A stretch of 63,832 bases of DNA, counting the filler, from Kipferlia bialata (Eukaryota), in the NCBI GenBank assembly GCA_003568945.1. It is 7 parts of 7 records of this genome, joined end to end, with 100 filler letters (N's around TTAATTAATTAA, not from the genome) between each part and the next. Parts side by side here need not be neighbours in the genome. Positions count along the whole stretch, not along the records: positions 11,131 to 22,152 come from BDIP01001310.1; 6 more parts are not named here. One strand, written 5' to 3'. Below the pieces are notes generated by a model. The model did not search any database and was not told the DNA's origin. It saw nothing but the letters and a program-made list of their open reading frames with translations. The position numbers and the translations under genes are program-made. Positions 13,530 through 63,810 of the stretch are shown in pieces. Each line of letters opens with the position of its first letter. Within the stretch, counting starts at the first letter, position 1.

Positions 13530-16500
13530 CTACAGCTGCTGGGATGACCCCATCTCCACCCTCTTCTCCTTCTCCCTCCTCTCCCTCATCATCAATAGGG
13601 CAATGTCCTTGAAGCGCTGCACATACACGGCACGCATCTCCTCCTGGGGGTCAGTATATATATATATATATATATCCATATCTATCTAGCATCTCCTCCT
13701 GGGGGTCAGTGTATCCATATCATTCTACCATTTTCATATATTTATATATATATATATATACATATATGAACATCACTGTTAATAACCATATATCAAGGTA
13801 TGTACAATCATGGGACGCATCTCCTCCTGGGGGGTCAGGGCATGTACATACACATAGAGTAATTACTCCACTCTAAATATGTATCCATAAATGTATCTAT
13901 ACTCAAATCCTACACACCTGGCTCTGCTTGAGTGCCTGTATGGACTGCTGTACTAGGATTCTTGTATATACTATGCATATACTGTACCTGCTCTCTCTGT
14001 ATCAATCCATGTATGTATCTATATCCCATGTACCTGGCTCTGCTTAAGTGCCTGTATGGATTGCTCCTCTATCAATCTCTCTTTCTCTCTATACATACAT
14101 ATATACATATATGTGTACGTGTGTCTATATCATCTATACCTGGCTCTGCTTGAGTGCCTGTATGGACTGCTGTATATAGTTGTATATAGGCACTCTCTCT
14201 ATCCATATCTATCTATCCATATGTATACACACCAGTACCTGGCTCTGCTTGAGTGCCTGTATGGACTGCTGTGTCTTGACAGACAGGGCAGACAGGGACT
14301 GGGTCGAAGAGGCAATGTGGGCTGGGGGTTAGGATACATATAGGGAAGAGAGTCAGAGAGAGAGTGTGTGTGAGAGAGATTATGTGGTCTGGGATAGTGT
14401 GTAGCAATAATAGAGAGCGATGAGAGGGGAGAAAGTACCCCTACCTGCCAGGGCACCGCTGAGTGCCTGAGTCTTCCTCAAGATTTCTCTCTATTCACCA
14501 ACATATATACATAGAGTATATACCTACATACACATCTACATATACCTGAGAGTGCATCGCTGAGTGCCTGTGTCCTCTGCAGGATATATATATAATACTT
14601 TGCTCTCTCTCTCTCTATATATATATATATAGTATGTAACTATATACATATACACATCTATATACCTGTCAGTGCATCGCTGAGTGCCTGTGTCCTCTGC
14701 AGGGTGCCTGTCTGCTGTCTGTCTCTCTCCCCCTCCACAGACTCAGTCAGCGTGGCAGTCAGGGACTGCACCTCGGACAGGGCCCTGCGGTCAACGATTA
14801 GTATACGAGAATAGTAATGTATACTATATGTTACTGATAATCTTCATATATATAGAAGAGGGATGGTAAGAGACTGTACCTCGGACAGGGCCCTGCGGGT
14901 GAGGGGGGCAATGTTAGTACGACTACACACAACAATACACATATACACCACTACATACCTAGCCACTTCTCCCCTGAGTCTCTCTGTCTCCTGGGTCATA
15001 TACTATACACTACACACATACACTCTCTAGACACAACCACACACATATATATATATATACATATATATATACCACTCTTCTTTGTTTCATACCTAGCCAC
15101 TTCTCCCCTGAGTCTCTCTGTCTCCTGTGCCATTGTCTGTGTGGCAGACTCAACCTCGGCAGACACACGGGTGGAGTGGTCGGACAGGGCCTGGGTTGGA
15201 TATATATTAATCATATATATAGACACATACATATATACATATTAATACATCCATCACGGGTGGANNNNNNNNNNNNNNNNNNNACATATATACATATTAA
15301 TACATCCATCACGGGTGGAGTGGTCGGACAGGGCCTGGTGTTATATGCATAGATATAGATAGAGAGAGTATATATATATACACACATATATATACATGCA
15401 TATATATATATCCATCGCGGGTGGAGTGGTCGGAGAGGGCGTGGTGTTATATGCATAGATATAGATAGAGAGCGCACATATATATATATATACATATGTC
15501 TATCATGTATGGGGTGGTCGGACAGGGCATGGGGGTAGAGATATATAGATAGAGAGAGTATATATATAATTATATACATATTAATACATCTATCACGGGT
15601 GGAGTGGTCGGACAGGGCCTGGGTTAGATATATACATAGATAGAGAGAGTATATATATATTAATATACATATTGACACATCTATCATGGATGAATTGGTC
15701 GGACAGGGTATGGGGGTCAATGATCTAAACATGTCTAGTGATTATACACCCAGGTGAAGCGGTCACTCCTACCTTGACCGTGTCGTTGACAGTGCATATA
15801 CATAAACACACACATATATCTATATGCTCTCTCTGTCTCTCTCTGTCTCTCTATATATATATCTATCTATACATACATCTCATACCTTGACTGTGTCGTT
15901 GACTGTGTCTGTGCATGTCTGGGTGAGGGTAATGCACTCCTGCACCTGGGGGGTCAAAACAATATATATACCATATATACATAACAATTAAATTTATACA
16001 TATATGAATATACCAACATATATACATATATACACATATATTCAATGGGTCAGGGTGATGCACTCCTGCACCTGGGGGTGGAGGGAGTATAGGTATATGG
16101 AGACAACTGTATTCAGACACCCATATTACATATGTGGGTCAGTTGAACACAGTGTATCATTAGATGCATGAATAACACCACCCACCCTAGCACTAGATGC
16201 ATCAGTTGATGCAGTGGATGTCTCTCTCTCCATCCTGGCCTCTCTCTCTCTCTCCCTCTCAGCAAGGGCAGCTACATGGGCATCAAAGGTGGCCTGGGGT
16301 GAGATGGAGAAAACTACACAAAAAATAAAGATATATGCAAGATATATAGTAAATATACACACACCTTGACCCCATCCACTCTGACACTGACACTGTCCAC
16401 CCTTTCCATGATGGATGTATACATATCCATATGTATATATACCATATACAGTGTATATACACTATCCATACCTTCACCCCGTCTACTCTGACACTCACAC

Positions 16501-17521
16501 TGTCTACCCTCTCCATGATGGACGAGACGAGGAGCATGCGCTTGGAGTCCTGGGCTGGAGGTGATAGAGGTACATATAGTTATATGTATAGATACAAGTA
16601 TACTGGAATGTACGAATACACTAGGAGTATACGCTTGGAGTCCTGGGCTGGGGGTGAGAGAGGTACACATACACACATGTATGTATATAATAACACTACA
16701 ACCACCCACATGCGCCGCACTCTCTGACCCCTTCTAGCAGCTGCTATATTACATATATATGTGTGTGATGTATATATATACATCTATATATCTTATACCT
16801 GCGCCGCACTCCCTGACCCCCTCTAGCAGCTGCTGCTGCACGTCTCCCAGTGTGTCAGAGACAGATGTGATCAGGGTGTGGACCCCAGCCACCTCGGCAG
16901 CCACTCTCTCTCTCTCTGCAGCAAGGAGAGATGCACAGTGTGCCCTGGTCTCTGCGTCCATCCTCTCTCTCTCTCTCTCCCCCTCTGTCTCTGCCACCTC
17001 CACCCTGTCACTAATGGATGATACACTGGCCAGACAGGCTGAGACAGAGGTGGAGAGGTCATGCACGGTGGTGGTGGTCTGAGGGTGAGAACAGACATGC
17101 AATTATCAGTGCATGTACATATATAAACCACAGATAGAAAAGAGAGTGGACATGTCATGGAGGGTGGTCTGGGGTGGACACCATATCAGGATAGAGAATA
17201 GTCACATCCATCGTACCTCGTCCTGCACCCCCCTCAGTAGGGTGTGTCCCTGCTTGACCCCCTCTATGTCAGATGCCATGTCCTTGATGGACAGTGATAG
17301 AGAGGCATGGGTCTCTGTCACACGGGTGTCAACGGTAGCGATGGAGGCAGAGGTCTGGGGTCAGGGTATGGATACATGTATAGAGAGAGAGACACAGAGG
17401 GAGATAGGCATAGGAATGTATGGGTGGCACATGCAGTGATGGAGGTCTGAAGTAAGGTATGTATATATACATATATGTATACATTACCTTCTGCTCCACC
17501 CCCTGCACCGCCTGGGCCACC

Positions 17522-17552
<31 letters not shown>

Positions 17553-20500
17553 CATATATACGTATATATATATATACATCTCACCTTCTGCTCCACCCCT
17601 TCCACAGCCCGTGCCACCCTCTCAGCCATCTGTGTCTCCAGAGTGGATAGGGCACTGGCATTGCCTGCCACGCCCTTCCTCACCCCCTCCACCCCCTTCT
17701 CAACCTCTACCATCACACTCTGCTGCACCCTCTCCATGGCACTGGTGGTACTGGTCCTGTCGGCCTCTCTCTCTCTCTCCCTGGTCTGGCCCTCGGCAGC
17801 AACCTGGTATGAGGTATATATACAAATGCATTAGTACACATATGCTGAGTATTTGTATCTCGCTCACCTTGTCGTTGAGTGCCTTGACCTCTGTGTCCAC
17901 CTTGTCTGACAGGGTAGACACAGAGGCAGAGAGAGAGGAAGTGGCAGCGGCAAGGGCTGTCTCAGAGTCACGCCTGGGGTGGGGGGAGAGGCAGAGAGAC
18001 AGAGAGAGCCGTGGAAGGTGTCCGTGCATCTCTATATATGTCAATGCTAATACATCTACATATACATCTTTCTGTGAATAAACACACTCTACTACACTAC
18101 CTACATATCCCTACCTGACCCCCTTGACCCCCTCCTCCACCATGAGGCACTAACACATATATATAGATATACTCTCTAGCACACTACCTATCTATGCATC
18201 TATCTAGTAATCTATGTCTATATACATGTACATACCTCACCCCCTTGACCCCCTCCTCCACCATCAGGCACAGTCTGGTGTCAAGGGCACCGGCCCTCTC
18301 GTTGATGACCTAGGGGTTAGACACTCATTCAAAAGGATACAATAACATACACTACAATATTAACCTTCGTGACTGCCCCCGCTAGATATAGTACACAAGG
18401 TATACCATCTTTTCCAGACACAGAATAGGTACCCACCATACCACTACCACCCATACCTTAGTGAGTGCCCCCTCCACCCCCTCGATGCCCCTCTGTGTCT
18501 CCTCCCTGGCTGTGCTGAGTACAGCAGCTGTGCATGCATCACAGTGGGCAGTGGCATCAACAAGGATGGAGTCAAGAACAGTTCTAAGAGTGAGGTTATA
18601 TATGTATATATAGTACAATGACTAGTGGCATCTGTCAGGAAGGAGTCAAGGGCAGTCCTGATATGAGGATATATATGTCGTTGCAATGTGCTCCCACCTA
18701 GGCACCATCTTTGCCCTCTCCCTCACTCCGTATGCCTCTAGTCTCGCTATGTTGGCTGTGTTACGGGCAGAGGACTCACGGGCAGTGTCCCTGGAGGTGA
18801 GAAGGACACTAGTTACCAAATAATAACCATTGACTATATACATATATATGTATACAAATACACACATACCTATCCTTGGCCATCATGTCGTTGAGTGATG
18901 CCATGCTCTCGGCCCATATATATATATGTACATGTGTGTGTCTCTCTCTCTCTATATATATATATCTGTATATCCATCTATATCTCCACACCTATCCTTG
19001 GCCATCATGTCGTTGAGTGATGCCATGCTCTCAGCCCATATCTCCTGTCCCTCTCTGTGGTTGTCCCCAATCACAGCTACAGACTCAGCCATAGTGGCAA
19101 TCTGGCCCTGGAGATTAGTGTGTATTACACTAGTATATTGGTATCAGTATGAATAGTATATAGTATACAATCATCCATATATTACAGCCACAGACTCAGC
19201 CATGGAGGCAAGCTGGCCCTGGGGGTTAGTATTATATATATAGAACACTGAAACTAGTATAATAGGTAAGGTAAGCTAATATATATACAAACAGTACAAT
19301 ACTACACACACACACATATAACTATTCATATATAGCCACACATACATATCATAGACTCAGCCATGGAGGCTAGCTGGCCCTGGGGGTAAGGGACACTCAT
19401 AGCTTTTAATAACATGAATGTCTCCAAGTATATCCCTATACCTTCATCTTCTGGTAGTGCTTGTCGTGTATCCTCTGGGACTCCCTGGCTATGCCCTCAA
19501 TGTGGGCAGACAGCTCCTCTGGGGTGAGGAAGGGGAAGTGATATATAGCAATAGCAGATACATCAGTATTGTACATATATACATATACATATATGTAAAT
19601 CGATGTAAATGGAAACGCCCTCAATGTGGGCAGACAGCTCCTCTGGGGGTGAGAAGTAATTGCCTCTTACAAATATCTATATATATGTACTCACCCTCCC
19701 TGTCGCACCAGTCCTGGGCCATCTCCCTAGTATATATAGTATTCTCTCTCTCCCTCTCTCTCTATATATATACAAACTATCTATCAATATGTACTCACCC
19801 TCCCTGTCGAACCAGTCCTGGGCCATCTCCCTAGTATATATAGTATTCTCTCTCTCTCTCTCTCTATATACATATACAAATATACCCAATATACATACCC
19901 TCTCTGTCGCACCAGTCCTGTGCCATCTCCCTTGTACACATATACACATATACTATACAGTACGATATATATACATGTATATCAATATCCATTGTATACA
20001 TACTATACAGTATACCCAATATACATACCCTCTCTGTCGCACCAGTCCTGTGCCATCTCCCTCGTTGCCTGCTGCCACTCCTCAATGTCCACCAGACGCC
20101 GGGCCTCGTCAGCGGCACGCCTCTCCTGTGCCTCCTGGGCCTCTGTCTGCCTAGTCTTGTCCAGGGCAGAGAACTGGGGGGATGAGAGGGAATTATATAC
20201 CTGTACATACATATATAGAACATATACATAAGGTATATGGTATATACTAATATACACACTGTTACATCTGTCTAGCAGTGTCCAGGGCAGAGAACTGGGG
20301 GGGTTAGTATGGGTATGAATGTATAGACACAAATATAAGTACAAGGGACAAGGCACTCACCCTGTCCTCCATGCCAGACACTATACTATATATTTACACA
20401 CTACTATATATACCACTACATATATCACAATATATATTACTATATACATCCACTCACCCTGTCCTCCATTCCAGACACTATGGCGTCTGTCCTCTCCCTC

Positions 20501-22100
20501 TCTGCCTCTATGGCACTGTCTGCTGTCTGTCTCTCAGTCACTAGCAGGGCATGTACCTCGTCCCTCTCTCTCTCGCGGCACTGGACCTACAGTCAGGTAC
20601 GAGTGTATAGGGAATATAAATATGGATAATGCCATTACGTATTAGTCTCTCTCCCTCTCGCAGGGGTTTGCGGTGTGGTATGGATACATACTTCGTGTCC
20701 CTATCTGATATCTATCAGACACATCTATATACCTCCGCTGTCAACTGCCTGCTGTACATCTGCCAGTGTTGTATGAGATATATACATATATACAAATATA
20801 CATGCATCAATATACTCCGCTGTGACTGCCTGCTGTGTCTGGGTCAGGGTCTATCCACATATACTACATGTCCGTATATGAATATGCTATGTACATGACT
20901 ATATACACACCTCCGCTGTCACTGCCTGCAGTATCTGGGTCAGGGTCTGGTCCAGGGCAGAGTGGGCATCGGTGCTGTCGGCCTGGGGGGTTAGTATATG
21001 TATGAACATCTTCATATGTACAAGTACAAATCAGTTCATTCATACAAAGCAACAAATACATATATGTACATCTATATACCTTCATGACAGCCAGTGTGCT
21101 AGCCAGTGCCTGTGAGTCTGCCTCATCCAGATGTATATATATATACTTACACACACATATATATATATACATACTATTACACATATATGTATAGTACCTT
21201 CATCACACTGAGTGTACTAGCCAGTGCCTGTGCATCTGCCTCATCCAAACATCTATGCATATATATATATATATTCACATGCATATATAATATATATCAA
21301 TTTAGTATATAGAGTGTAATATAGTAGTACCTTCATCACACTGAGTGTGCTTGCCAGTGCCTGTGCGTCTGCCTCATGTCTCTGGGACAGGGAGTGCTCC
21401 AGGGCAGACAGGGCAGTGGCTGAGGTGAGAGGGTATATACACCTATAGAGGGAGAGAGAGAGGGAGTGCTCGAGGGCAGACAGAGCAGTGGCTACAGGGT
21501 GAGGAGAGTGGCATATACTATGTATAGAATTGAGGGAGTACATACACATACACCCACCTGCCCCCTCCTTGACCCCCTCCACCCTACTGTCCATCTCTGT
21601 GAGTCTGGTCTGCAGGGTGTGGTTAGACACCTCGGCCTGCCTCTCTCTCTCGGCACGCCTCTCACCCGCTGCATGCTCAAGCCTAGTGGGTTAGTATACA
21701 CACACACAAAAGCATAGATATCCACATATATGACAGAGTGTCACTGTCTCTCCCCTTCAGCATACACTCTCTCTCCCTACCTCCCTGCCACCTCTGAGCA
21801 GCATGTCTCCCACTGTGCCTTGCTCTCCCTGCCGAGTCTCTCTCTCTCTCTCTCTCCCTCCTGCCTCACTCCCTCAATAGCTGTGTCCAGCCTCTCTCTC
21901 TCCTTCTCAGCATAGGCCAGGCTCTGCCTCTCCCTCTCCTCGCCCCTCTCCTGCTCCCTGGGGGTGAGACTATATATATCTATCTACATACATACACACA
22001 TGAATCTCTAGCGATGTCCCAAAACCTATCAATGTCCCTCTATCTATACGCTACCCCACACCTAGCCAGAGTGCCTTTGAGTGCGTTGTGCTTGTCATAT
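13530..22100 (-). CDS. Long multi-exon coiled-coil protein (5' incomplete), stop TAG at 13530-13532
   Basis: More than 25 short exons with consensus splice sites encode heptad-rich A/E/S/R helices (for example SIMERVDSVSVRVDGVK and ASALSTLETQMAERVAR). No family recognised. Confidence 0.75.
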
Positions 22101-22312
22101 TACTCTCTCTCTATCTCCCCCCCCCCCCCCCCCACCCATTTATTTTTATCATNNNNNNNNNNNNNNNNNNNNNNNNNNNNNNNNNNNNNNNNNNNNTTAA
22201 TTAATTAANNNNNNNNNNNNNNNNNNNNNNNNNNNNNNNNNNNNNNNNNNNNCATCAGCTGTGGCATCTGTCTTGTAACTCTTCAGCCCCCCCCCCCCCC
22301 TCTCACCCCCAG

Positions 22313-23960
22313 CCATCTCCATCTGCCTCATCATCATCTGCCTGGGCATGTGTGATCTGTGGGAGGAGGAGCACTCAGAGAGCGGGGAGTACAACGGGTG
22401 GTACTACACATGTACGGTACACTATGCATGCTACACACACATATATACTCTCTCTCTGTCTCTCTTGACCCCCCCCCCCTCACCCCAGGCCTGGTCTTCT
22501 GCTACGTGGGCGTTGTCTCCCACACCGCCCTCTCCTTCATGATCATCATGGAGTGGCTGTCCCCCAATGTGCTCGGGGCACAGTTCGTGAACCCAACCAA
22601 CCTGGTAAGGATATATATCAGTCTACCAAGCCTCTCTGTCTCTCTCTCTCCCCCTCACCCTTCAGATCCCCCCCGTGGCCAACATCATCATGGGTCTGTC
22701 TCTGGCCAAGACAGAGCAGACAGAGCTCGGGTGGTTCTTCTGGGCATCAGGTATATATACCCAATATCCATAGTAATACATTCTCAATGATTTCCCAACC
22801 CCTCACCCCAGGCGTCATCATGTACCTAGGCATCTTCGCCATGTCCCTCACCCTGATGGTCACCGGCAAGTCCATGCCCCCCAAGCTCAGGACAACCATA
22901 TTCATCTGGGTGGGTGATTGTATGTGGATACCACTTCCTACTCTCTCTCTCTCTCATTGTCTTCTTCAATCACACCTCTCCCTCACCCCAGGCTGCCCCC
23001 GGGGCCCTTGCCTTCATCGCATACTCCGCCCTCACAGGGGGGACATGGGACGTCATGGCTAGGTATGCATATATACACATGTATGTGTGTTCATACAATG
23101 AATGTCCCCCCTCTATCTCCCCCCCGCCCCCTCTCACCCCCAGGCTGTTCTGCTACTCCGGCCTCTACTTCTGGTTCTTTGCCATGGTATTCTTCTTCGT
23201 CAGGATCGCACCCTGGATGCTGTACGTGCTGGTGTCTCTCTCTCTTACACACACACCCACACACACCCACTCTCTCTCTCTCTCTCTTTCTCTCTCTCCT
23301 TTAGTAGTGTTCACCCCCACTCCCCCTCATGTCCAGTAAGAAGTTCGAGGTGACCTGGTGGGCCATCACATTCCCCTCTGCCTCCACCGCCGTGTCTACA
23401 TTCGACCTGGCCAAGAAGATGGAGGTATGAATGTGTAGATATATTCATACTGTATACAACTCTAAGGAGATGGGGAGGTGGGGACACAGTGGGGTATGTA
23501 CACTCACTACCAAGCGGCCATATGTGTAGTATATCTCATTGACCCCCTCCCCCTCTCACCCCCCAGAAGGAGTACGGCGCTGGCAACAACACCATATTCA
23601 AGTGGATATCTTGGTTCGTGGCCGCCACTGACTTTGTGTTTGTGGCCCTATGCCTAGTGGCATCTGTCGTCCAGGTATAGTTGTATTAGTATTCTCACTT
23701 TCAGTCTCGTGTACAGTGGTCTGAGTCTCACCCCCTAGGGCTTCCGTGGCAACCTCTTTGTGGCCGAGGGAGAGGGCCCCAAGCCAAAGCAGATGCTCAA
23801 GGTAGGGTGGCAAGGGTGTCATAGGGTATTGGAGAGAGTGTTGTCACATAGTCTATGTGAAGTGAATAGATACTACCCCCCCCCCCCCTATCCCCTCCTC
23901 ACCCAGGCTGTCTCTGAGGTACCCCCCTCTGAGGAGGGTGCAGCTGAGGCCAAGGTGTAA
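22313..23960 (+). CDS. TehA/SLAC1 (TDT family) anion channel / dicarboxylate transporter, 5' incomplete
   Basis: Spliced motifs VNPTNL|IPPVANII, MPPKLRTTIFIW|AAPGALAFIAY and KKFEVTWWAITFP, plus multiple TM helices. Confidence 0.85.
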
Positions 23961-26123: not shown

Positions 26124-29100
26124 ATGGGGTATAACCTGCTGCTTGCTCTACTCTTCCTGCTCTCCCTGTCCAGTGGGGTGGCCTCCCTCTCTCTGTTTGG
26201 GCCTGATGACGACTCTGGCCCACACGACTCATACGGCAATGGTGAGTGCCCCTCCCCCTTTCCTATAGTGCCCAGATAGTTATGAATGGGTGGTTGTGAT
26301 GTCAGTTACATGTCTATTGTCATTTAGCTGACATATGGCGGGATACTATACCAGATATAGAGATCGTGTATTGCCCCATTCACTTCCACACCGCCATATG
26401 CTCAGTCAAGTTGATACCTGACTCTTTGCTATGTTTTAACCGCAGGCTCCTCCCCTGGGGTGTTTACCACTGGCATACTGGTAACAGAGGCCCAGGTCCG
26501 TTGTGGTCTACACGCATTCACCATCACTCTCCACACCGATTTCACCCCATATTGGCCCAACTCCCCACAAGCACTGGCATACTGGTAACTGAGGTCCAGG
26601 TGAGATGCCGTTGTGGTCTACACGCATTGTGACTATCCTTTCCACACCGATTTCACCCCATATTGGCCCAACTCTACACTAACACTCCATTGGCATATAT
26701 CCAAGAGCATGCCTGCTATTCTCTGACCCCCAGGCTAGTGATGGATACCCTGACTCCATGGTGGTGGATGGACCCATCGCACTGGCAGGTGGGAATATGA
26801 GTATATATATATACAGAGAGAGGGGGGGGGGGATGGAGTGACTAGCCGATTTATGATCACTTATAGGAATACATTCGTAAGTGGAAGATGAGACAGGTGA
26901 AATATTACTTTCCCCCAATGTCAGGTGTTCCCCCTCCCTCTAACCCCTAGGCAACTGGGCGGTGGTATCGGCACAAGGTAGGGTTATCACTGTGCAGTAT
27001 GTCCGCCTCCTTTGCAACTCGGCCCGTTCCTTGTTTTGTTCTGTTCTGTCTCATCCTGTGCTACTCATTCCTCCCCTGTATATAGATGTATGATTCATGT
27101 ACATATTTACAAACATATTACTATATATACATGTACTCCCCCCAGTCAACTCTGGCGACGCCCACTGTTCACAAACTAGCGTATACACACTACACTACTA
27201 ATGTACTTATAGTATAGGCTCTACACGTTCTATAATTATGTCTTTCCTTAGCCTATCCCTTCTGTACGAGACCCTCTGTCATATGGACAGTATACACGCT
27301 ATACTTCTAATATACATACACACTTCTCAACACCCACCCCAGCCCTCCTAGACGACACCCTCTGTGATGCAGTCATTGTATACCACTACGTTGAGGAGAG
27401 AGACGAGTACTACCGTTACTACAACAAGTGGGAGGCGGCAGCAAACCTTGCTGGTACCCTTCCTGCTCTGTCTGCTGAGAGACTGGTATTGAGGTGAGAG
27501 GCACTCTCACAGCTATGTCCGCCAGTTTGAAGTTATAGAACTTGACGGCACTACGAACTATGATTTCACTGTCAATCGTTTTCTATCGCGTATACTCCCC
27601 TCACCCCAGGTCCAGCCTTGGCACTCTGTCCACGTATGACCTCAGTGGAGACAGCCCTGTCCTAGAGGCATCAACAGAGGTACTCCATTGTGATAGAGAG
27701 ACAGCACTCTTCTGAAACTACAGTGAATACATATCTTAGGTGTCGATTAGGCGGCCTAATTTAGGCCTATACAAATATAGAATACAACATCGACACTGTC
27801 GATGTAGCGTACCTTAGTATAATACTCTTGTCAAATACTCACTTCAGGTCTCTCTGGCCTCTGACTCCTCCACCGTCACTGCCCTCTCTCTCTCTGGGGA
27901 CACACTAGTGGTGGGCACCAGTGACTCTAGGGTGTTTGTGTACACACTCTCTCAGTCCCCCGACTGGCTGTGGAGCCTCACAGCTGAGCTCCTGCCTATT
28001 GTACCTGTACTAGGTGTCGGCTCAGGCTTTGGCCTAGCTCTAGACCTCCTCATCCCCTCACTGGTCTCCACAACGATGGAGAGTGACTATTACGCTAGAG
28101 TGGCCGTTAGTACCCCGACATACGCAAGCGTGGAGGGGACTGAGGTTGTTGACGGTGACAGCTACCCCTGTGTGTACATCTTTGAGACTGGCTCAGAGGG
28201 TGCAGACTGGACACAGACTGGGGTGGTGAGGGTGACTGAGGACGTCTCGCCTGACACTGACTCCCTCTCCTTAGGCCGCACTGTATCCCTGTCTGAAGGC
28301 GCAGTGGCATTCAACTATTGGCACCCTAACCTGAAGACCGCCCCTGACTATCCTGTAGTCCAGACATACTCACCGTGTGTAAGCGGCCATACTGTGTCGA
28401 GTGGAGTTGTGAGTGAATGGTGCTTGGTGGAATCCACCCCAGGCCAACACACTTCTTACGCCGTGCACAACTACTTCGGCATGTCATCTGGTGGCCTAAG
28501 TGCCTCTCTGGCGGTCTCTAGCCAGGTTGCTATACCCAGTTATGTCCCGAACTACGACTACTACCAAAACAGCTACCACCCGTCAGTCAGAATCCTCAAC
28601 AGTAGTGATTGGGAAGCGTCCACCAACGCCTCCTTTAGGGAGTTTGAAGTGCTAGTCGGAGTGACAAGTGTCGCCAATGAGTGTCGGCCAGCGTATGAGA
28701 AGTACCCACAAGGACAGGGAGAGAGGCTGATACTTCAGGTCTTACTATCTTGTATGCAACTCCCACTCTCCCTACCGCGAGATACTATGCCTCTTACCTC
28801 AGTGTGGTACGTCTGTCCTCATATACTCCAGCGAGAACGAGTACTCCTTGGCGCAAGTACACTATGGGCAGAACGTGGTCACGTACTCATACACATCAGC
28901 CAGTGACACATCATATGAGTGCCCGTCTCTTGACGTCTGTGTGGTGAACGAGGATTACTACTACTCTGTGCAGCCCTATGACGATATTGCACCCAACGAG
29001 TTTTGGTCATATGATGGGACCCACGCGTATGCGTCTCTGTATGTGGTACCAGGCTTTACATACATGATCCCTGGCGCTGGGGGCATGTCAATGCTCATCC

Positions 29101-44751: not shown

Positions 44752-47700
44752 GCCAAGAGACCTGCCGGTATGGACACTGCATCCATAGAGCAGTATGTAG
44801 CTAGGTATGCAGTTCTAGTATATATATGTGTATCACTTGCTCTCTTTCTGTACATGGTGTGGTAGGTATCTAATGGATATAGTATATAGCACCCCCTCCC
44901 CTCCCTCCCCTCCCCGACATAGCTTATACCAAGTATCTGTACTGAGAAGGCTGCCCTACAGGCTGCCAAGGCCTCTCTGACACGGATACTGGGCACCATC
45001 AGTGGACACATGGAGGATATACTAGCAACGGAAGGCAAGTGTATATGTTCATATATTCATATACGTCATACATGTATATACTATACCCGACGCGTGTACT
45101 AGGCACCATCAATGGACACATGGAGGATATACTGGCTATGGAAGGTAAGTATATATATATATATATATATTTATATATAAATATATACTATATGGAGACT
45201 CTTACACGGATACTGGGCACCATCAATGGACACATGGAGGATATACTAGCAACGGAAGGTTGGTGTATATGGACACACATATCTTCTTGGACTCATTGTC
45301 TATTGTATAAATGTATATGACAGAGAGAGAGAGAGAGAGAGAGAGTCTCACCCCAGGCTATGGTGTGCAGCTCATTACTGCCAATGAGGAAGATGAGTCC
45401 ACATTCGAGGTATGTATGCATATATATATATATATATGTATATATACGACAGATAGAATATTCCGAATACTCAGTATTCGGTATTCGGTATAGAGTACAT
45501 TGAGGAAGATGAGTCCACATTCGAGGTTGGTCTATATAGATATAGATATAGATATATTAACATGAATATGCAGATATACATATGGAGTATTGGTATAGAC
45601 TGTTGAGTGCCAATGAGGAAGATGAGTCCACATTCGAGGTTCCTATGCACATGCATATATATCTATAGTAACAGATTTAGTATATGTTATTCCAGTAGTT
45701 GGGGATATAGCCCAATGAGGTAGATGAGTCCACATTCGAGGTTCATATATATTTATACACCTATGGTAGTGTTCCTTATTTCAATATAACATCAATTCTA
45801 GGTATTACTTCAATGAGTTACCATTATTCATTTCAATTCTTATTAACCTCTAGGTCCAGAAAGTGGCCACATGGGGCACCTTCATCGTGGGTATGGATCA
45901 ATCTGCAAATCAATCTACGAATCAATCTAGAAATCAATCCGCAAATCAATCCGCAAATCAATCTACAGATTAATCTCTATACCTAGTCTCTTACAGATAT
46001 TGGGCCGCGTTCGTGGGTATGATGTATCATGTATGTAGGTATTGTATTAAATATATATGTACATTGAGATTGATGGAGAGTCACCATTGATGGCTGATTC
46101 AGTTCCTCATCAGTCGCCACTCACTTCCAGGTCCCAATAAGTCAAAGTTTGACATATCTGTGTCACACGCTAACGATGACGGCCTAGGGTATCTAAACGT
46201 TGAGATTGAGGGCGCTGGTACGTCCCTCTATCCGCATCTCTGCTGCATAGTACGCTCTCTCTTCAAAATATGTGGCTTCATATGCTCAATCTATATTCAT
46301 ACTATATGCCCTCATGGGGGTAGATACTACATCCCACTTCCTAACAGTTGCACGCATGTGTGCTAAGCATACTCTTATCATTACTCATGGAGGTCAACGA
46401 TGCTGCATCTCTGGTCATGTCCCTGTATATCCTAGTATATCCTTATTAATTAATTATTATTAATCCAAATCCTAGTATAAATCCTAAGCTTTGTAGATCC
46501 CAATTAATTCATTATTATTAATCCAAATATATCCTTATCCTTGTGTCATGTGTATACAATCATAGTGGTCTAATACTATATACACTCTCTAACTATAAGA
46601 TATCTTCATGGAGCTTGAGGAGGACAATGACTTCACACCCCTCGGGTACAGCAACAGTGACATTGTACAGTTCCTGATAAAGGCAGGTGTGTACTTGACT
46701 GGGTAAACCGGTATATATAGTGCTAGTATTGATATATACAATTTTCTTGCATACATATATATATTCCTGGCGTATATACTATGCGTACAGGAGTAGTGAC
46801 ATAGTACAGTTCCTGAGGAAGGCAGGTATATCTATATATACATGTAGATGTATATATATATATCTATATTTGTATATCTGTATGTATGGATACTATACAC
46901 ATACGCACTTATATGACATCGTTCAGTTCCTGGGGACGGCATGTAAGATAGGTAGTTGATATATATGTGAAGAACGCAGGCGTGTACCTCTGGGAATACA
47001 AGTGTTCATGGGTAGGGGAATACCTATATATCATACTAACCCCATGTCTCTCCCACCTCCCCCCCAACCCTACAACGAATATATATTTATATATTTATTA
47101 CATACATATACATTTGTGTGACACCAGGACTGTCCCACCTGACCCCCAACCCTGACAAGTGTGTGAATATATANNNNNNNNNNNNNNNNNNNNNNNNNNN
47201 NNNNNNNNNNNNNNNNNNNNNNNNNNNNNNNNNNNNNTATGTATATGTACATACATATACACATGTATGACACCAGGACTGTCCCACCTGACATATGTAT
47301 ACATAATTATATATATTTATATGTTGAAGGCAGGTGTGTGCATGAGAGGGATATATTTGGGGGTAAGATATATCATACTAACCCCAGGACTGTCCCACCT
47401 CCCCCCCAACACTGCCAAGTGTAAAGACAAGGATGTGCTGGCACTGGTGGAGCAGAAGGTATTTGGGGGGATACACTATGTATATTCATATATGTATACG
47501 TATTTGTGTGTGTATTATTACACTAGTATGTATATTGGTAATATTCCAAGGGTAGAGACAAGGATGTGCTGGCTCTGGTGGAGCAGAAGGTATATTGAGT
47601 ATCAATTATGTCTCAATATATTTGTGTACTAGTATTTATATCGGCAAATATTCAGAGTGCAAAGATAAGAATGTGTCGACTGGTGGAGCATAGTCTATAA

Positions 47701-48398: not shown

Positions 48399-48933
48399 GG
48401 ACTTGTACTACTAGACTAGTCTAGATTGGGGTCCCAAGACACTTCAAGTCAGACGTGACCCTCTGGTTCAACTTAAGGCCTCAACACAAGTTCCTGGAGC
48501 TGGAATAGACTAGATACAAGTGGTAGAGAGACAGAGAGAGAGAGAGAGATTACAAGCACCTGGAGCTGGATGGACAGATCCTAGACAAACCCCTGTACCA
48601 ATAGTTGGCGAGTATATACAGTGTATACCAGACTATAATTTCAAAATACTGGAATCGACTAGTACGAATGTATTCAGTAGCAGTGACGTTGTAACAGTCA
48701 AGATAGTCGGGAAGAGAGAATACTTGTTGCGCCCGATTCCGTACTCTTCTTTGGTTGACCTCAAGAACTAGTTAGGCTGCTAGTCCGAAGACATACATCT
48801 GAGATGTATCATCTCTATTACCGTACTTATAGCAATTATAGCAAATAATACCATAATAATAGTAATTGGGGAATACAACAGCTATCTGAATGACAATATC
48901 TGCTATATTGGTGCGTACTATACGAAGTACAGC

Positions 48934-50222: not shown

Positions 50223-50745
50223 ATACAGATAATCCAGTTATTGTTGGGGTAAAACAATATGTACTTTTATAAGAGAGGGAGTCTCACACAGTAGGATTAG
50301 GTTGATGGCTCTCTGCAGATGGTCTCATCTTGGCAAGATGATCTTGCGGCTTCCAATGACTTTTACAGTTTAAGGTACAAAGTTTACACATGATGGGTGG
50401 GTCAATGAGCCACAATATGAGACGTGTTGAAATATAGCTCCCATGTACTTTCAGTCAACATGAAAATTGGAGGTCAGTGGCACGCCATGGTGAGTTAGGT
50501 GTAGCCGTAATAGTCATACAACAATGGCCACGTGACACTGTAATACATGCGATTTATGACTAACCAAAGACTTCCTTTTCAGTCTGACTAGTAGGCACTG
50601 TGTATGAGAGAGACTCCTTGGGGACTCAGAGGTCAGGGTATGTGCACCATCACATGGGCTCCTCGATGCTGACACACACTCTCTCTCATCAATATATACT
50701 CTACTATACTACATTCCCATTGGGACATAGCCTACAGTGTAGGCC

Positions 50746-54452: not shown

Positions 54453-55436
54453 TACAGCCCTCATCGCTGCTGCCAACCCTGCCTGGGGCCGGTACAACCC
54501 CCAGAGGACAGCGGCAGAGAACATCAACCTGCCACCTGCCCTGCTGTCTAGGTATGGGTGTATACTATACATATTATGTATACATATATATACTATATGT
54601 ATATACTATTATATGTACTCTATAGGTTAGTAGTATCAACCTGCCACCTGCCCTGCTGTCTAGGTATGGTTGAATACTATACATATACTCTATGCATGTA
54701 CTATTATATATGTGCATATATATACTCTACAGGATAGTAGTATCAACCTGCCACCTGCCCTGCTGTCTAGGTATGGGAGTATACTATACATATACTATAT
54801 ACTGTATGAATATAATATTATATATGTGCAGATATATTCTCTATAGGTTAGTATCCTCAACCATGCCCTGCTGTCTAGGTAAGCATATGGGAGGCTGTCT
54901 TGTTAGGGTGATGTATTTCTAGACACAGACACACTCTCTCTATCTCTCTGTCTACCTGTATATATCTATGCATATCCCCCTCACCCCTAGGTTTGACCTC
55001 CTGTTTGTCATCAGACTCTCCCTCTCTCTCCCTCACCCTAGGTTTGACCTCCTCTTTGTCATCAGGGACATTGTGCAGTCGGCCAACGATGAGAGGTAAG
55101 TAATACATGTAATATGAATTGTGTATATATATGGGTACTATTACACATGTATACTCTATATATTATATACTGTATAGTATATATTCATTGTGCAGTCAGC
55201 CAACGATGAGAGGTACAGGTACACGATGTGCAAATACTATACTTCTATACCTTATTGTATTTCTTATATTATTAATACACTCTCATATATTAACCTAACC
55301 CCATGCTAGTCAGACACGTTGCCCATCTGCACATGCATCCCATATATATAGCACATACATACATATACATACATGGTTATGAATATATATATACCCACCC
55401 CAGGCTTGCTAGACACGTTTCCCATGTGCACATGCA

Positions 55437-57824: not shown

Positions 57825-58918
57825 GCACCAGCATAGCACAGCTGTCCCCCATGTTGGCACTGGGCAGAGTGAGGGTGGAGGACGCCAGGTCAACCTGGGA
57901 ATGAGGGGGCACCTATACGTATATGGTAACCACCTTCATATATATATAAGAGGCTAGGTCAACCTGGGGGTGAGACGGAACAGGTATAGAGTCCCTACTG
58001 TACTTGTACTATATAACCCACCTCCACCACTGTCTCTGCCCCAATACACTGGGTACATGGGTGTATTAAATGCACATATACATATATTCAGTACTTGTCT
58101 ATACAACATGTCCTGTACATATATACATATATACCTCCACCACGGTGTGTGCCCCATACACTGGGTACATGGGTGTGTTTGATGCCGCTATGGACAGGTG
58201 GAGGGTGGTATCTGGCTGAAGAGACCAAGAGACAGTCCACAGGTCAAACTGGGTTAGGAAGGATATGGGTGGTTGTCATAATCTATAACCTTTCCACCCA
58301 CCTCGACCTGTATCCACTCCCCTGCCTCCACAGGTATGGCATCACCAGAGGCATGGGATACACGCTGCACACCCCTGGGAGTGAGATATATACAGTGATA
58401 TGTATATATGGGTATATGATGCACACCCCTGATGGGTGAGTGAATGTTTCAGGAGTATATGTAACGTGGATAGTCACACCCACCTTGCTATGAGTACACT
58501 CCCCCCCTCTGCGTCCACCTCACTCAGTGCCAGGTGGAGGTCAATGTCAGTGGGGGTGGAGAGACGGACCTGGGGTATAAGTCTCTTGGATCCATTGAAA
58601 GGCCAAATCCAAAGTAACACCCACACAATTCGATACCGTCATCTGTCCACTGGTGTATATGCCATACAGAAGAGCATTTAGTACAGAAGTAAAGAGTACC
58701 ATACAGATTACTCCATACCCTGACGGATGCTGTCATGTGTCCAAACAGAGTGGTCAGACCAGAAGGGGCTATGTACACATCGACCTGGGGGTTAGGACGG
58801 TAAAGGGTATAGGTGGACGTATGCATAGAGAGGGTGTCCATGTGAACACAGTGGGGTGTGACGGGTAGTTGTATAGTGTCTGTGTCTATGGTTTCCCACC
58901 TGATTGGGCAGGCCTGTC

Positions 58919-61033: not shown

Positions 61034-63810
<2,777 letters not shown>

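What the first reader, a model, noticed from the sequence alone, without database searches (positions are those of the whole stretch)
16365..16522. Cleanest echo: 17 codons, six differences, all synonymous
The live exon end at 16522-16472 and the intronic copy at 16415-16365 both encode SIMERVDSVSVRVDGVK followed by GT. They differ at GAG/GAA, GTA/GTG, GTG/GTC, GTA/GTG, GAC/GAT and GTG/GTC. The copy has no recognisable acceptor. Six of six silent changes is hard to explain by neutral decay.
Basis: seen in the sequence. Interest (0 to 1): 0.85.

Follow-up and report, generated by a model that had tools for sequence, protein, structure and literature searches.

The report
Introns storing old exon-end versions
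Many introns of the free-living protist Kipferlia bialata carry a spliced-out copy of the neighbouring exon's end about 110 bases away, and these copies differ from the working exon mostly at silent positions, likely because recombination copied them in from working versions of the gene in other individuals.

Summary
The window is joined Kipferlia bialata scaffolds; the gene is KIPB_005552. One DNA contig at normal depth spans both copies, so they are not misassembled alleles. The one RNA contig splices from the upstream copy and removes the echo.

The echo is one of 67 found in 36 of 58 modelled introns, spaced about 111 nt apart, on donor and acceptor sides, and twice after stop codons. None lie in plain intergenic DNA. 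Overall 61 of 100 distinct differences are silent (55 of 94 without this case), above the 34-44% that duplication plus drift allows. The excess comes mainly from this gene and a few conserved enzymes. Similarity ends abruptly at the GT.

The structure is a known kind: lancelet 'mirages' and the human F7 intron-7 repeat. The density, the narrow unit size and the silent bias were not found in print. Best reading (0.55): the copies came from diverged working alleles by unequal or one-sided recombination. Main rival (0.25): self-duplication with drift. No second strain was available to test this.

The parts
16472..16554 (-). Live exon of KIPB_005552 (residues 671-698); its last 51 nt (16522-16472) are the copied part
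   Evidence: Protein match and GT/AG boundaries; covered by the RNA contig
16416..16471 (-). 56-nt AT-rich spacer that begins with the GT donor in use; has no acceptor
   Evidence: RNA joint 16292-16471, skip 178; AG scores
16365..16415 (-). The echo: 51-nt copy of the exon end, six silent differences, spliced out
16294..16364 (-). 71-nt complete-looking intron (own GT donor, acceptor in use) that follows the echo; not alignable to the spacer
   Evidence: Alignment score 7.8; 38 of 55 unrelated intron starts score as well or better
16186..16293 (-). Next exon, joined to the live donor
16623..16647 (-). Acceptor-side echo of the same exon's start (25 nt, preceded by its own AG; one silent and one replacement difference); skipped in RNA
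16711..16745 (-). Donor-side echo of the previous exon (35 nt, two silent differences)
13530..21957 (-). Host gene KIPB_005552, 22 modelled exons, no Pfam family above cut-off; holds 31 of the 67 echo copies; the 5' part lies beyond the scaffold end
   Evidence: RNA contig of 5007 nt has about 2.8 kb upstream of 20584
62771..62802 (+). Acceptor-side echo in an Hsp70 gene, four of four scored differences silent (live copy 62878-62909)
54635..54878 (+). Three donor-side echoes in an MCM gene: exon part identical to the live end, spacers alignable but 14-17% mismatched plus gaps
48446..48508 (+). Echo of a gene's last 21 codons downstream of its stop, offset 110, ungapped, 45 of 63 identical, stop kept in place; differences not biased by codon position (7/5/6)
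50650..50673 (-). Echo of another gene's C-terminus downstream of its stop, offset 99, ending in its own stop codon

Best explanation
The echo is a spliced-out copy of the exon end plus a second splice donor, one of dozens in this genome, and it likely came from a different, once-working allele of the same gene, brought next to the present exon end by unequal or one-sided recombination. Shown: the copy is in the DNA in tandem, the cell splices from the outer site, such copies hug coding/non-coding borders at about 110-nt steps, and their differences are mostly silent. Inferred: alleles in the wild population differ by roughly 10% or more at silent sites and have introns too diverged to pair, so pairing starts in the exon and fails at the splice site. 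A break about 15-60 nt inside the exon would be extended on the other allele through its exon end and about 80 nt of its intron, then joined back to the unpaired end. That leaves the imported exon end live and the old exon end, with its own donor and intron, stranded downstream; the mirror event gives acceptor-side echoes. Only events that end inside the intron survive selection. Once a first echo exists, mispairing of echo and live end between alleles would add further copies and refill them with working sequence. The echo then needs no function: both versions were under protein selection until they were placed side by side.
For: Silent share 61 of 100 distinct differences, 55 of 94 without the focal copy; ceiling for duplication plus drift 0.34-0.44, p at most 5e-4 and 4e-3; bootstrap over 38 families 0.50-0.72, P(share at most 0.44) 0.0007, and 0.0023 without the focal family. 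10 of 27 copies with two or more differences are all-silent against 2-3 expected. Per-site divergence 12.2% silent against 2.8% replacement; silent changes run both ways, 21 GC-to-AT and 20 AT-to-GC. Identity is 93% in the last 14 exon bases, GT is kept in 39 of 41, then identity falls to 48% at +3 to +8 against 40% for unrelated donors: the pattern of two working versions. MCM array: 0 differences in the exon copies while spacers differ by 13 of 77 and 11 of 78 aligned bases. 1 repeat in 7225 nt of hand-chosen intergenic DNA, and it is a stop-codon echo; 0 in 8760 nt of intronless coding DNA; 2 of 12 correctly placed stop codons have echoes, so the trigger is a coding border, not splicing as such. 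No paralog or second allele of this exon in the strain, so a donor must be a past allele. 16 of 26 copy pairs within a family share the inner junction within 2 nt, as array expansion predicts. Context: metamonads lack Ku and DNA-PKcs, and all fornicates examined lack Rad51A and have two Dmc1 paralogs (PMC8516963, section read); Dmc1 stabilises mismatched joints (PMC6719624, abstract only).
Against: No second strain was found, so allelic diversity is assumed, not measured. The excess rests mostly on one gene (38 of 52); the other genes together give 23 of 48, not significant against duplication plus drift (p 0.04-0.4), and the 12 of 15 for conserved enzymes is a subset chosen afterwards that leaves out one MCM pair whose live copy is uncertain. 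Under an extreme mutation model (transitions x4, GC-to-AT x5, no replacements tolerated) p is 0.035, and 0.10 without the focal copy, although the data do not show such a spectrum (19 of 44 fourfold-site differences are transitions). The frame-free test is weak without the focal copy (47 of 116 pairs). Replacement differences are only marginally conservative (p 0.054). The identity cliff could come from fast slippage in TA-rich intron DNA. Six differences at about 13 silent sites is very high for alleles. Some arrays are plain young duplications with the intron part conserved (19674-19880, 26468-26674). PMC8516963 states that sex has not been directly observed in metamonads.
Confidence: 0.55

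Rival explanations
1. Ordinary tandem duplication from the same chromosome, started at fragile TA-rich intron DNA. The live copy then gathers silent changes, the echo gathers random ones, the TA-rich flanks scramble fast, and six of six is the lucky tail of many cases.
For: 21 of 67 copies are identical to the live end. Some units keep their intron part. A DNA contig joint that goes back 110 nt at 19265-19156, depth 942, hints at a very young perfect extra copy. Genes other than KIPB_005552 fit this null (23 of 48). Farther copies are more diverged in 13 pairs, less in 6, tied in 7. It is the usual account of mirages (PMC3087553, passages).
Against: Cannot exceed a silent share of about 0.44-0.50 with plausible parameters; observed 0.61 overall and 0.70 in the host gene without the focal copy. 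Does not explain echoes after stop codons or the sharp end of similarity at the GT without an extra assumption. No excess of hairpins in introns (33 against 27.5 +/- 6.9 in shuffles).
Confidence: 0.25
2. The echo is, or recently was, used: as a rare alternative exon end, or as a silent cassette swapped into the live position by deletion or conversion between the repeats often enough for selection to keep it coding.
For: The silent bias itself; 0 of 67 echoes hold an in-frame stop (about 4% of replacement changes would make one, so this is weak); echo splice sites still score well. In human F7 the silent donors work once the first is lost (PMC1557585, passages).
Against: The RNA contig uses only the outer sites; no acceptor before any of 42 donor echoes; spacings are not frame-preserving; no DNA joint skipping the 107-nt unit; frequent swapping would also erase the silent differences.
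Confidence: 0.12
3. Assembly artefact: two alleles or paralogs were stitched in tandem.
For: The assembly is short-read, the spacing is near a read length, and 5 of 5 internal N gaps lie within 65 nt of an echo. X1 may be the source sample.
Against: One contig from a separate assembly of run X1 spans both copies without gaps at the depth of its neighbours; the copies share at most 11 identical bases in a row, too few to be merged; no alternative contig at 80% likeness.
Confidence: 0.03

Closest known systems
Lancelet 'mirages' (globins BflGb6 and BflGb9, Adh3, troponin C, PGBD5; PMC3087553 and PMC3902484, passages read)
   Same: Tandem copies of an exon-intron boundary with its splice signal, on either the donor or the acceptor side; units of similar size (150-160, 108, 60 bp); normal splicing; turnover ascribed to unequal crossing-over.
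   Different: Reported for a handful of genes; here 36 of 58 modelled introns. BflGb6 units are 81-100% alike over their length; here the intron part is usually not alignable. The passages read mention no silent-site bias and no echoes after stop codons.
Human boundary-spanning minisatellites (F7 intron 7 37-bp VNTR; also CBS, LMNB2, PDGF, 6-16; PMC1557585, abstract and passages read)
   Same: The authentic donor is repeated in the intron and only the most upstream site is normally used.
   Different: F7 units hold only 4 exon bases with identical splice sites, in 5-9 copies; here 15-60 exon bases, mostly 1-2 copies, donors unrelated beyond GT, and acceptor-side cases where the farthest AG is used.
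Intron gain by tandem genomic duplication or double-strand-break repair (PMC3443670, PMC4202315, PMC11782384; passages read)
   Same: Local duplication at splice sites; break repair as the likely source.
   Different: Those create new introns or leave short repeats (4-30 bp, mean 11, in PMC11782384); here existing introns grow by about 105 nt per echo and no new intron is made.
One-sided invasion / synthesis followed by end joining (recalled; not found in the papers listed); silent gene-conversion cassettes such as Neisseria pilS and Borrelia vls (recalled)
   Same: The first gives a tandem duplication whose upstream copy comes from the template; the second are partial dead copies that stay coding.
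   Different: Neither was tested here; cassettes serve antigenic variation at a few loci, whereas echoes sit in housekeeping genes such as Hsp70 and MCM.

Membership tests
Mirage / boundary-spanning minisatellite | Tandem unit spans an exon-intron boundary and repeats the splice signal | tested here: met
   62 of 67 copies reach within 3 nt of the splice site; GT kept in 39 of 41, AG in 21 of 25
Mirage / boundary-spanning minisatellite | Either boundary can be duplicated | tested here: met
   29 donor-side and 19 acceptor-side families
Mirage / boundary-spanning minisatellite | Normal splicing; extra sites stay silent | tested here: met
   RNA contig skips the donor echo at 16415 and the acceptor echo at 16647; contigs only, rare isoforms not visible
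Mirage / boundary-spanning minisatellite | Units alike over their whole length, intron part included | tested here: not met
   Focal spacer no closer to the echo's intron than unrelated introns; only 5 of 41 donor and 5 of 25 acceptor flanks score z above 2; met in a few young arrays
Mirage / boundary-spanning minisatellite | Copy number varies between haplotypes or cells | tested here: inconclusive
   One sample only; a joint going back 110 nt at 19265-19156 hints at an extra copy
Mutually exclusive tandem exons | Each copy has its own acceptor and donor and appears in mRNA | tested here: not met
   No acceptor before 42 of 42 donor echoes at score 7; echo absent from the RNA contig
Intron gain by tandem duplication | A new intron is spliced between the duplicated AG/GT sites | tested here: not met
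   The intron removed runs from the live donor to the old acceptor and contains the copy
Introner or transposon insertion with target-site duplication | Spacer belongs to a repeated element family flanked by short duplications | not testable with these tools
   No whole genome is held; only the focal spacer was compared, with 55 intron starts
Silent gene-conversion cassette | Copy is transferred into the expressed site at a measurable rate | not testable with these tools
   Contigs drop rare variants; no such joint seen

The most novel reading that the evidence does not exclude
A large share of K. bialata introns are an archive of displaced working alleles: recombination between strongly diverged haplotypes, run by Dmc1 without Rad51A or Ku, fails at every coding border and leaves the old exon end in the intron. 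One genome would then record population diversity and outcrossing in a group where sex has not been seen, and this would be a main driver of its intron length.
Probability: 0.4. Interest if true: 0.8.

Novelty: new variant of a known kind. Interest (0 to 1): 0.58.

Why it matters
Exon-boundary duplications were known as oddities in a few lancelet and human genes, with the mechanism called unclear (PMC3087553). Here they are common, regular in size and numerous enough for statistics: intron length in the modelled genes is about 118 + 105 nt per echo (r 0.89). If the copies are old alleles, they give evidence for recombination between diverged individuals in a fornicate from one genome, and link a visible scar to an unusual repair toolkit. 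They also give thousands of natural tests of how a reduced spliceosome (87 of 174 proteins, PMC6679479, passages) picks the outer of several good splice sites on both sides. In practice they explain gaps in the assembly and can mislead gene prediction.

Tried and rejected
Whole-genome scan: no genome is held, so all counts are for this window. Other strains: the exon search found only KIPB_005552 itself (1 hit among 1419 candidates); the metagenome scan gave 144 pattern matches, none confirmed; the run search listed two runs of one sample, neither on record as RNA (X2 is a guess, but its contig shows GT-AG joints). Snap-back hairpin signature of polymerase-theta repair: the focal spacer holds palindromes, but 53 introns show no excess over shuffles. 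Fixed-length unit: echo and spacer lengths are only weakly anti-correlated (r -0.27, p 0.03); echo length does not follow exon length. Recursive or in-frame use of the echo: rejected on acceptor scores and spacing. Whole-exon duplication followed by trimming: disfavoured because 66 of 67 copies match the exon end next to their intron. Age gradient along arrays: 13 against 6, mixed. Two of 14 stop positions were misplaced and are not counted; the translation of the stop-codon echo was out of frame and was redone. Left out of the 67 because frame or live copy was uncertain or the score was under threshold: 21 of the 107 pairs (listed; all at exon ends or in echo arrays by eye), among them cases with replacement differences (26468, 60289) and silent ones (54302). 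Earlier-findings look-ups by place and by first words gave nothing.

Full report
Source. The window is seven scaffold pieces joined by N-padded spacers. A window protein is 100% identical to KIPB_005549 and an exon next to the finding to KIPB_005552, both named Kipferlia bialata by the source, with contig lengths (11030, 11022) equal to the first two pieces. No whole genome is held.

The observation. It is exact: 51 nt, offset 107, six differences, all third-position and silent, GT after both copies. KIPB_005552 maps to 22 exons with 21 GT-AG introns. The intron 16471-16294 reads: live GT, 56-nt AT-rich spacer, echo, second GT, then a 71-nt complete-looking intron. A DNA contig of run X1 spans 15882-16664 without gaps at depth 444.6, like its neighbours, with one other letter at 16565. 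At 80% likeness the only other contigs lie on the low-complexity spacer. So the copies are in tandem and the strain holds no second version of this exon. The one contig of run X2 on this stretch joins 16292 to 16471 and matches the live exon without other letters; it also skips an acceptor-side echo at 16647. Contigs hide rare forms, and X1 may be the source sample.

It is one of many. A codon-blind repeat scan found 107 local pairs. I built 14 partial gene models around them, with frames fixed by open reading across junctions, by the annotated protein, or by family (Hsp70 and MCM above Pfam cut-off, PH and NUDIX below it; the PDI and USP labels are recalled from motifs). In their 58 introns an ungapped aligner found 67 copies in 48 families, 29 donor-side and 19 acceptor-side, 15-60 nt long, 62 within 3 nt of the splice site. 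36 of 58 introns hold one; these genes were chosen for having repeats, so that share is too high for the genome. With the published 2.45 introns per kb (PMC5874029) the window should hold about 155 introns, which suggests roughly a quarter (inference). Successive copies are 111 nt apart at the median, 61 of 67 within 85-150, and intron length is 118 + 105.5 per echo. All 5 internal N gaps lie within 65 nt of an echo. In 7225 nt of hand-chosen intergenic DNA there is one repeat, and it is an echo of a gene's last codons 110 nt past its stop; a second stop-codon echo lies at 50.7 kb; 8760 nt of intronless coding DNA has none.

Is the silent bias real? 61 of 100 distinct differences are silent; 65 are at third positions. 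A decaying echo alone gives 0.23-0.28. Duplication followed by drift in both copies gives at most 0.34-0.44; p is 5e-4 or less, and 4e-3 or less without the focal copy. A bootstrap over families gives 0.50-0.72. Against: the host gene supplies 38 of 52; other genes give 23 of 48, which fits the drift null; an extreme AT-biased mutation model lifts the ceiling to 0.50-0.52 and p to 0.015-0.035 (0.05-0.10 without the focal copy), though the observed changes are symmetrical; the frame-free spacing test is 62 of 131, and 47 of 116 without the focal copy. Conserved enzymes give 12 of 15, a subset picked afterwards. I judge the excess real but not proven genome-wide. The focal case alone has p 0.001-0.005, or 0.01-0.02 as best of three.

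A second pattern. Identity between echo and live end is 93% over the last 14 exon bases and the GT is kept in 39 of 41, but it is 56% at +3 (50% for unrelated donors) and 48% over +3 to +8 (40%). Even the 13 donor copies identical in the exon keep only 59% there. The focal spacer aligns to the echo's own intron no better than unrelated introns do. In the MCM array the spacers do align but differ by 14-17% plus gaps while the exon copies are identical. Two working versions of a gene look like this. Fast slippage in TA-rich DNA could also produce it, so it is supporting, not decisive.

Mechanism. The echo is not translated: no acceptor, no frame preference in spacing, absent from the RNA contig. 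The simplest way for a dead copy to differ mostly at silent sites is for it to have been live in another lineage until recently. I therefore favour import from a diverged allele: pairing starts in the conserved exon and fails at the border; synthesis runs about 80 nt into the other allele's intron and is joined back, or, once a repeat exists, echo and live end mispair and exchange. Selection keeps only products that end inside the intron, which accounts for spacers nearly as long as whole introns (mean 79 nt). Shared inner junctions within families (16 of 26 pairs) fit expansion by unequal exchange. The lineage's repair set fits too: no Ku or DNA-PKcs in metamonads, no Rad51A and two Dmc1 in fornicates (PMC8516963). 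All of this mechanism is inferred; allelic diversity could not be measured because no second strain was found.

Comparison with what is known. An earlier-findings look-up pointed to lancelet mirages and the human F7 repeat, and I read the relevant passages. The echoes work like mirages: boundary copies on either side, outer site used. They fail one mirage feature, likeness over the whole unit, so I file them as a variant. I found no description of them in K. bialata: the genome paper has no occurrence of 'duplicat' or 'heterozyg' in its main text, and searches listed nothing on it; the library lacks most subscription papers, including the original Adh3 mirage paper. Papers seen: PMC5874029 first sixth of the text and 12 of 16 passages; PMC8516963 passages and one whole section; PMC6679479, PMC11782384, PMC4202315, PMC3443670, PMC3087553, PMC1557585, PMC3902484 passages; PMC6719624 abstract and outline; the lists as listings only. 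No supplements were read; Supplementary Data 2 of PMC8516963 bears on which repair genes K. bialata itself has.

Verdict. Real feature; new variant of a known kind; interest 0.58. Allele import 0.55, self-duplication with drift 0.25, present or recent use 0.12, artefact 0.03, other 0.05.

Noticed in passing
window 19156-19265: A DNA contig of X1 (depth 942, about twice the local depth) goes back 110 nt here, hinting at an extra perfect copy of an acceptor-echo unit that the assembly collapsed.
   Followed up: no
window 58023-58048 and 58135-58160, minus strand: A whole 26-nt micro-exon with acceptor and donor is duplicated at the usual spacing (112 nt); possible mutually exclusive pair; frame unknown.
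   Followed up: partly
window 45034-45036, plus strand: The modelled live donor is GC while both of its echoes carry GT; not checked with RNA.
   Followed up: no
window 26446-26674, plus strand: A 104-111-nt unit in which the intron part is conserved and the upstream donor is atypical; which donor is live is unclear.
   Followed up: partly
window 16565: The X1 contig shows G where the window has T at full depth, just upstream of the live acceptor; probably an assembly error.
   Followed up: no
window 48551-48583, plus strand: A possible third, weaker copy of the same gene's C-terminal codons about 100 nt past the stop-codon echo.
   Followed up: partly
window 13080-12270, minus strand: Exons downstream of the annotated end of KIPB_005552 read by eye like a DnaJ domain (HPD motif, recalled); the annotated last exon may be internal or this is a separate gene.
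   Followed up: no
window 22253-23960, plus strand: An intron-rich membrane-protein-like gene with about ten introns shows no echo in the repeat scan, so echo density varies between genes.
   Followed up: no
window 45900-45980: Short tandem repeat of about 12 nt in an intron, unrelated to exon sequence.
   Followed up: no
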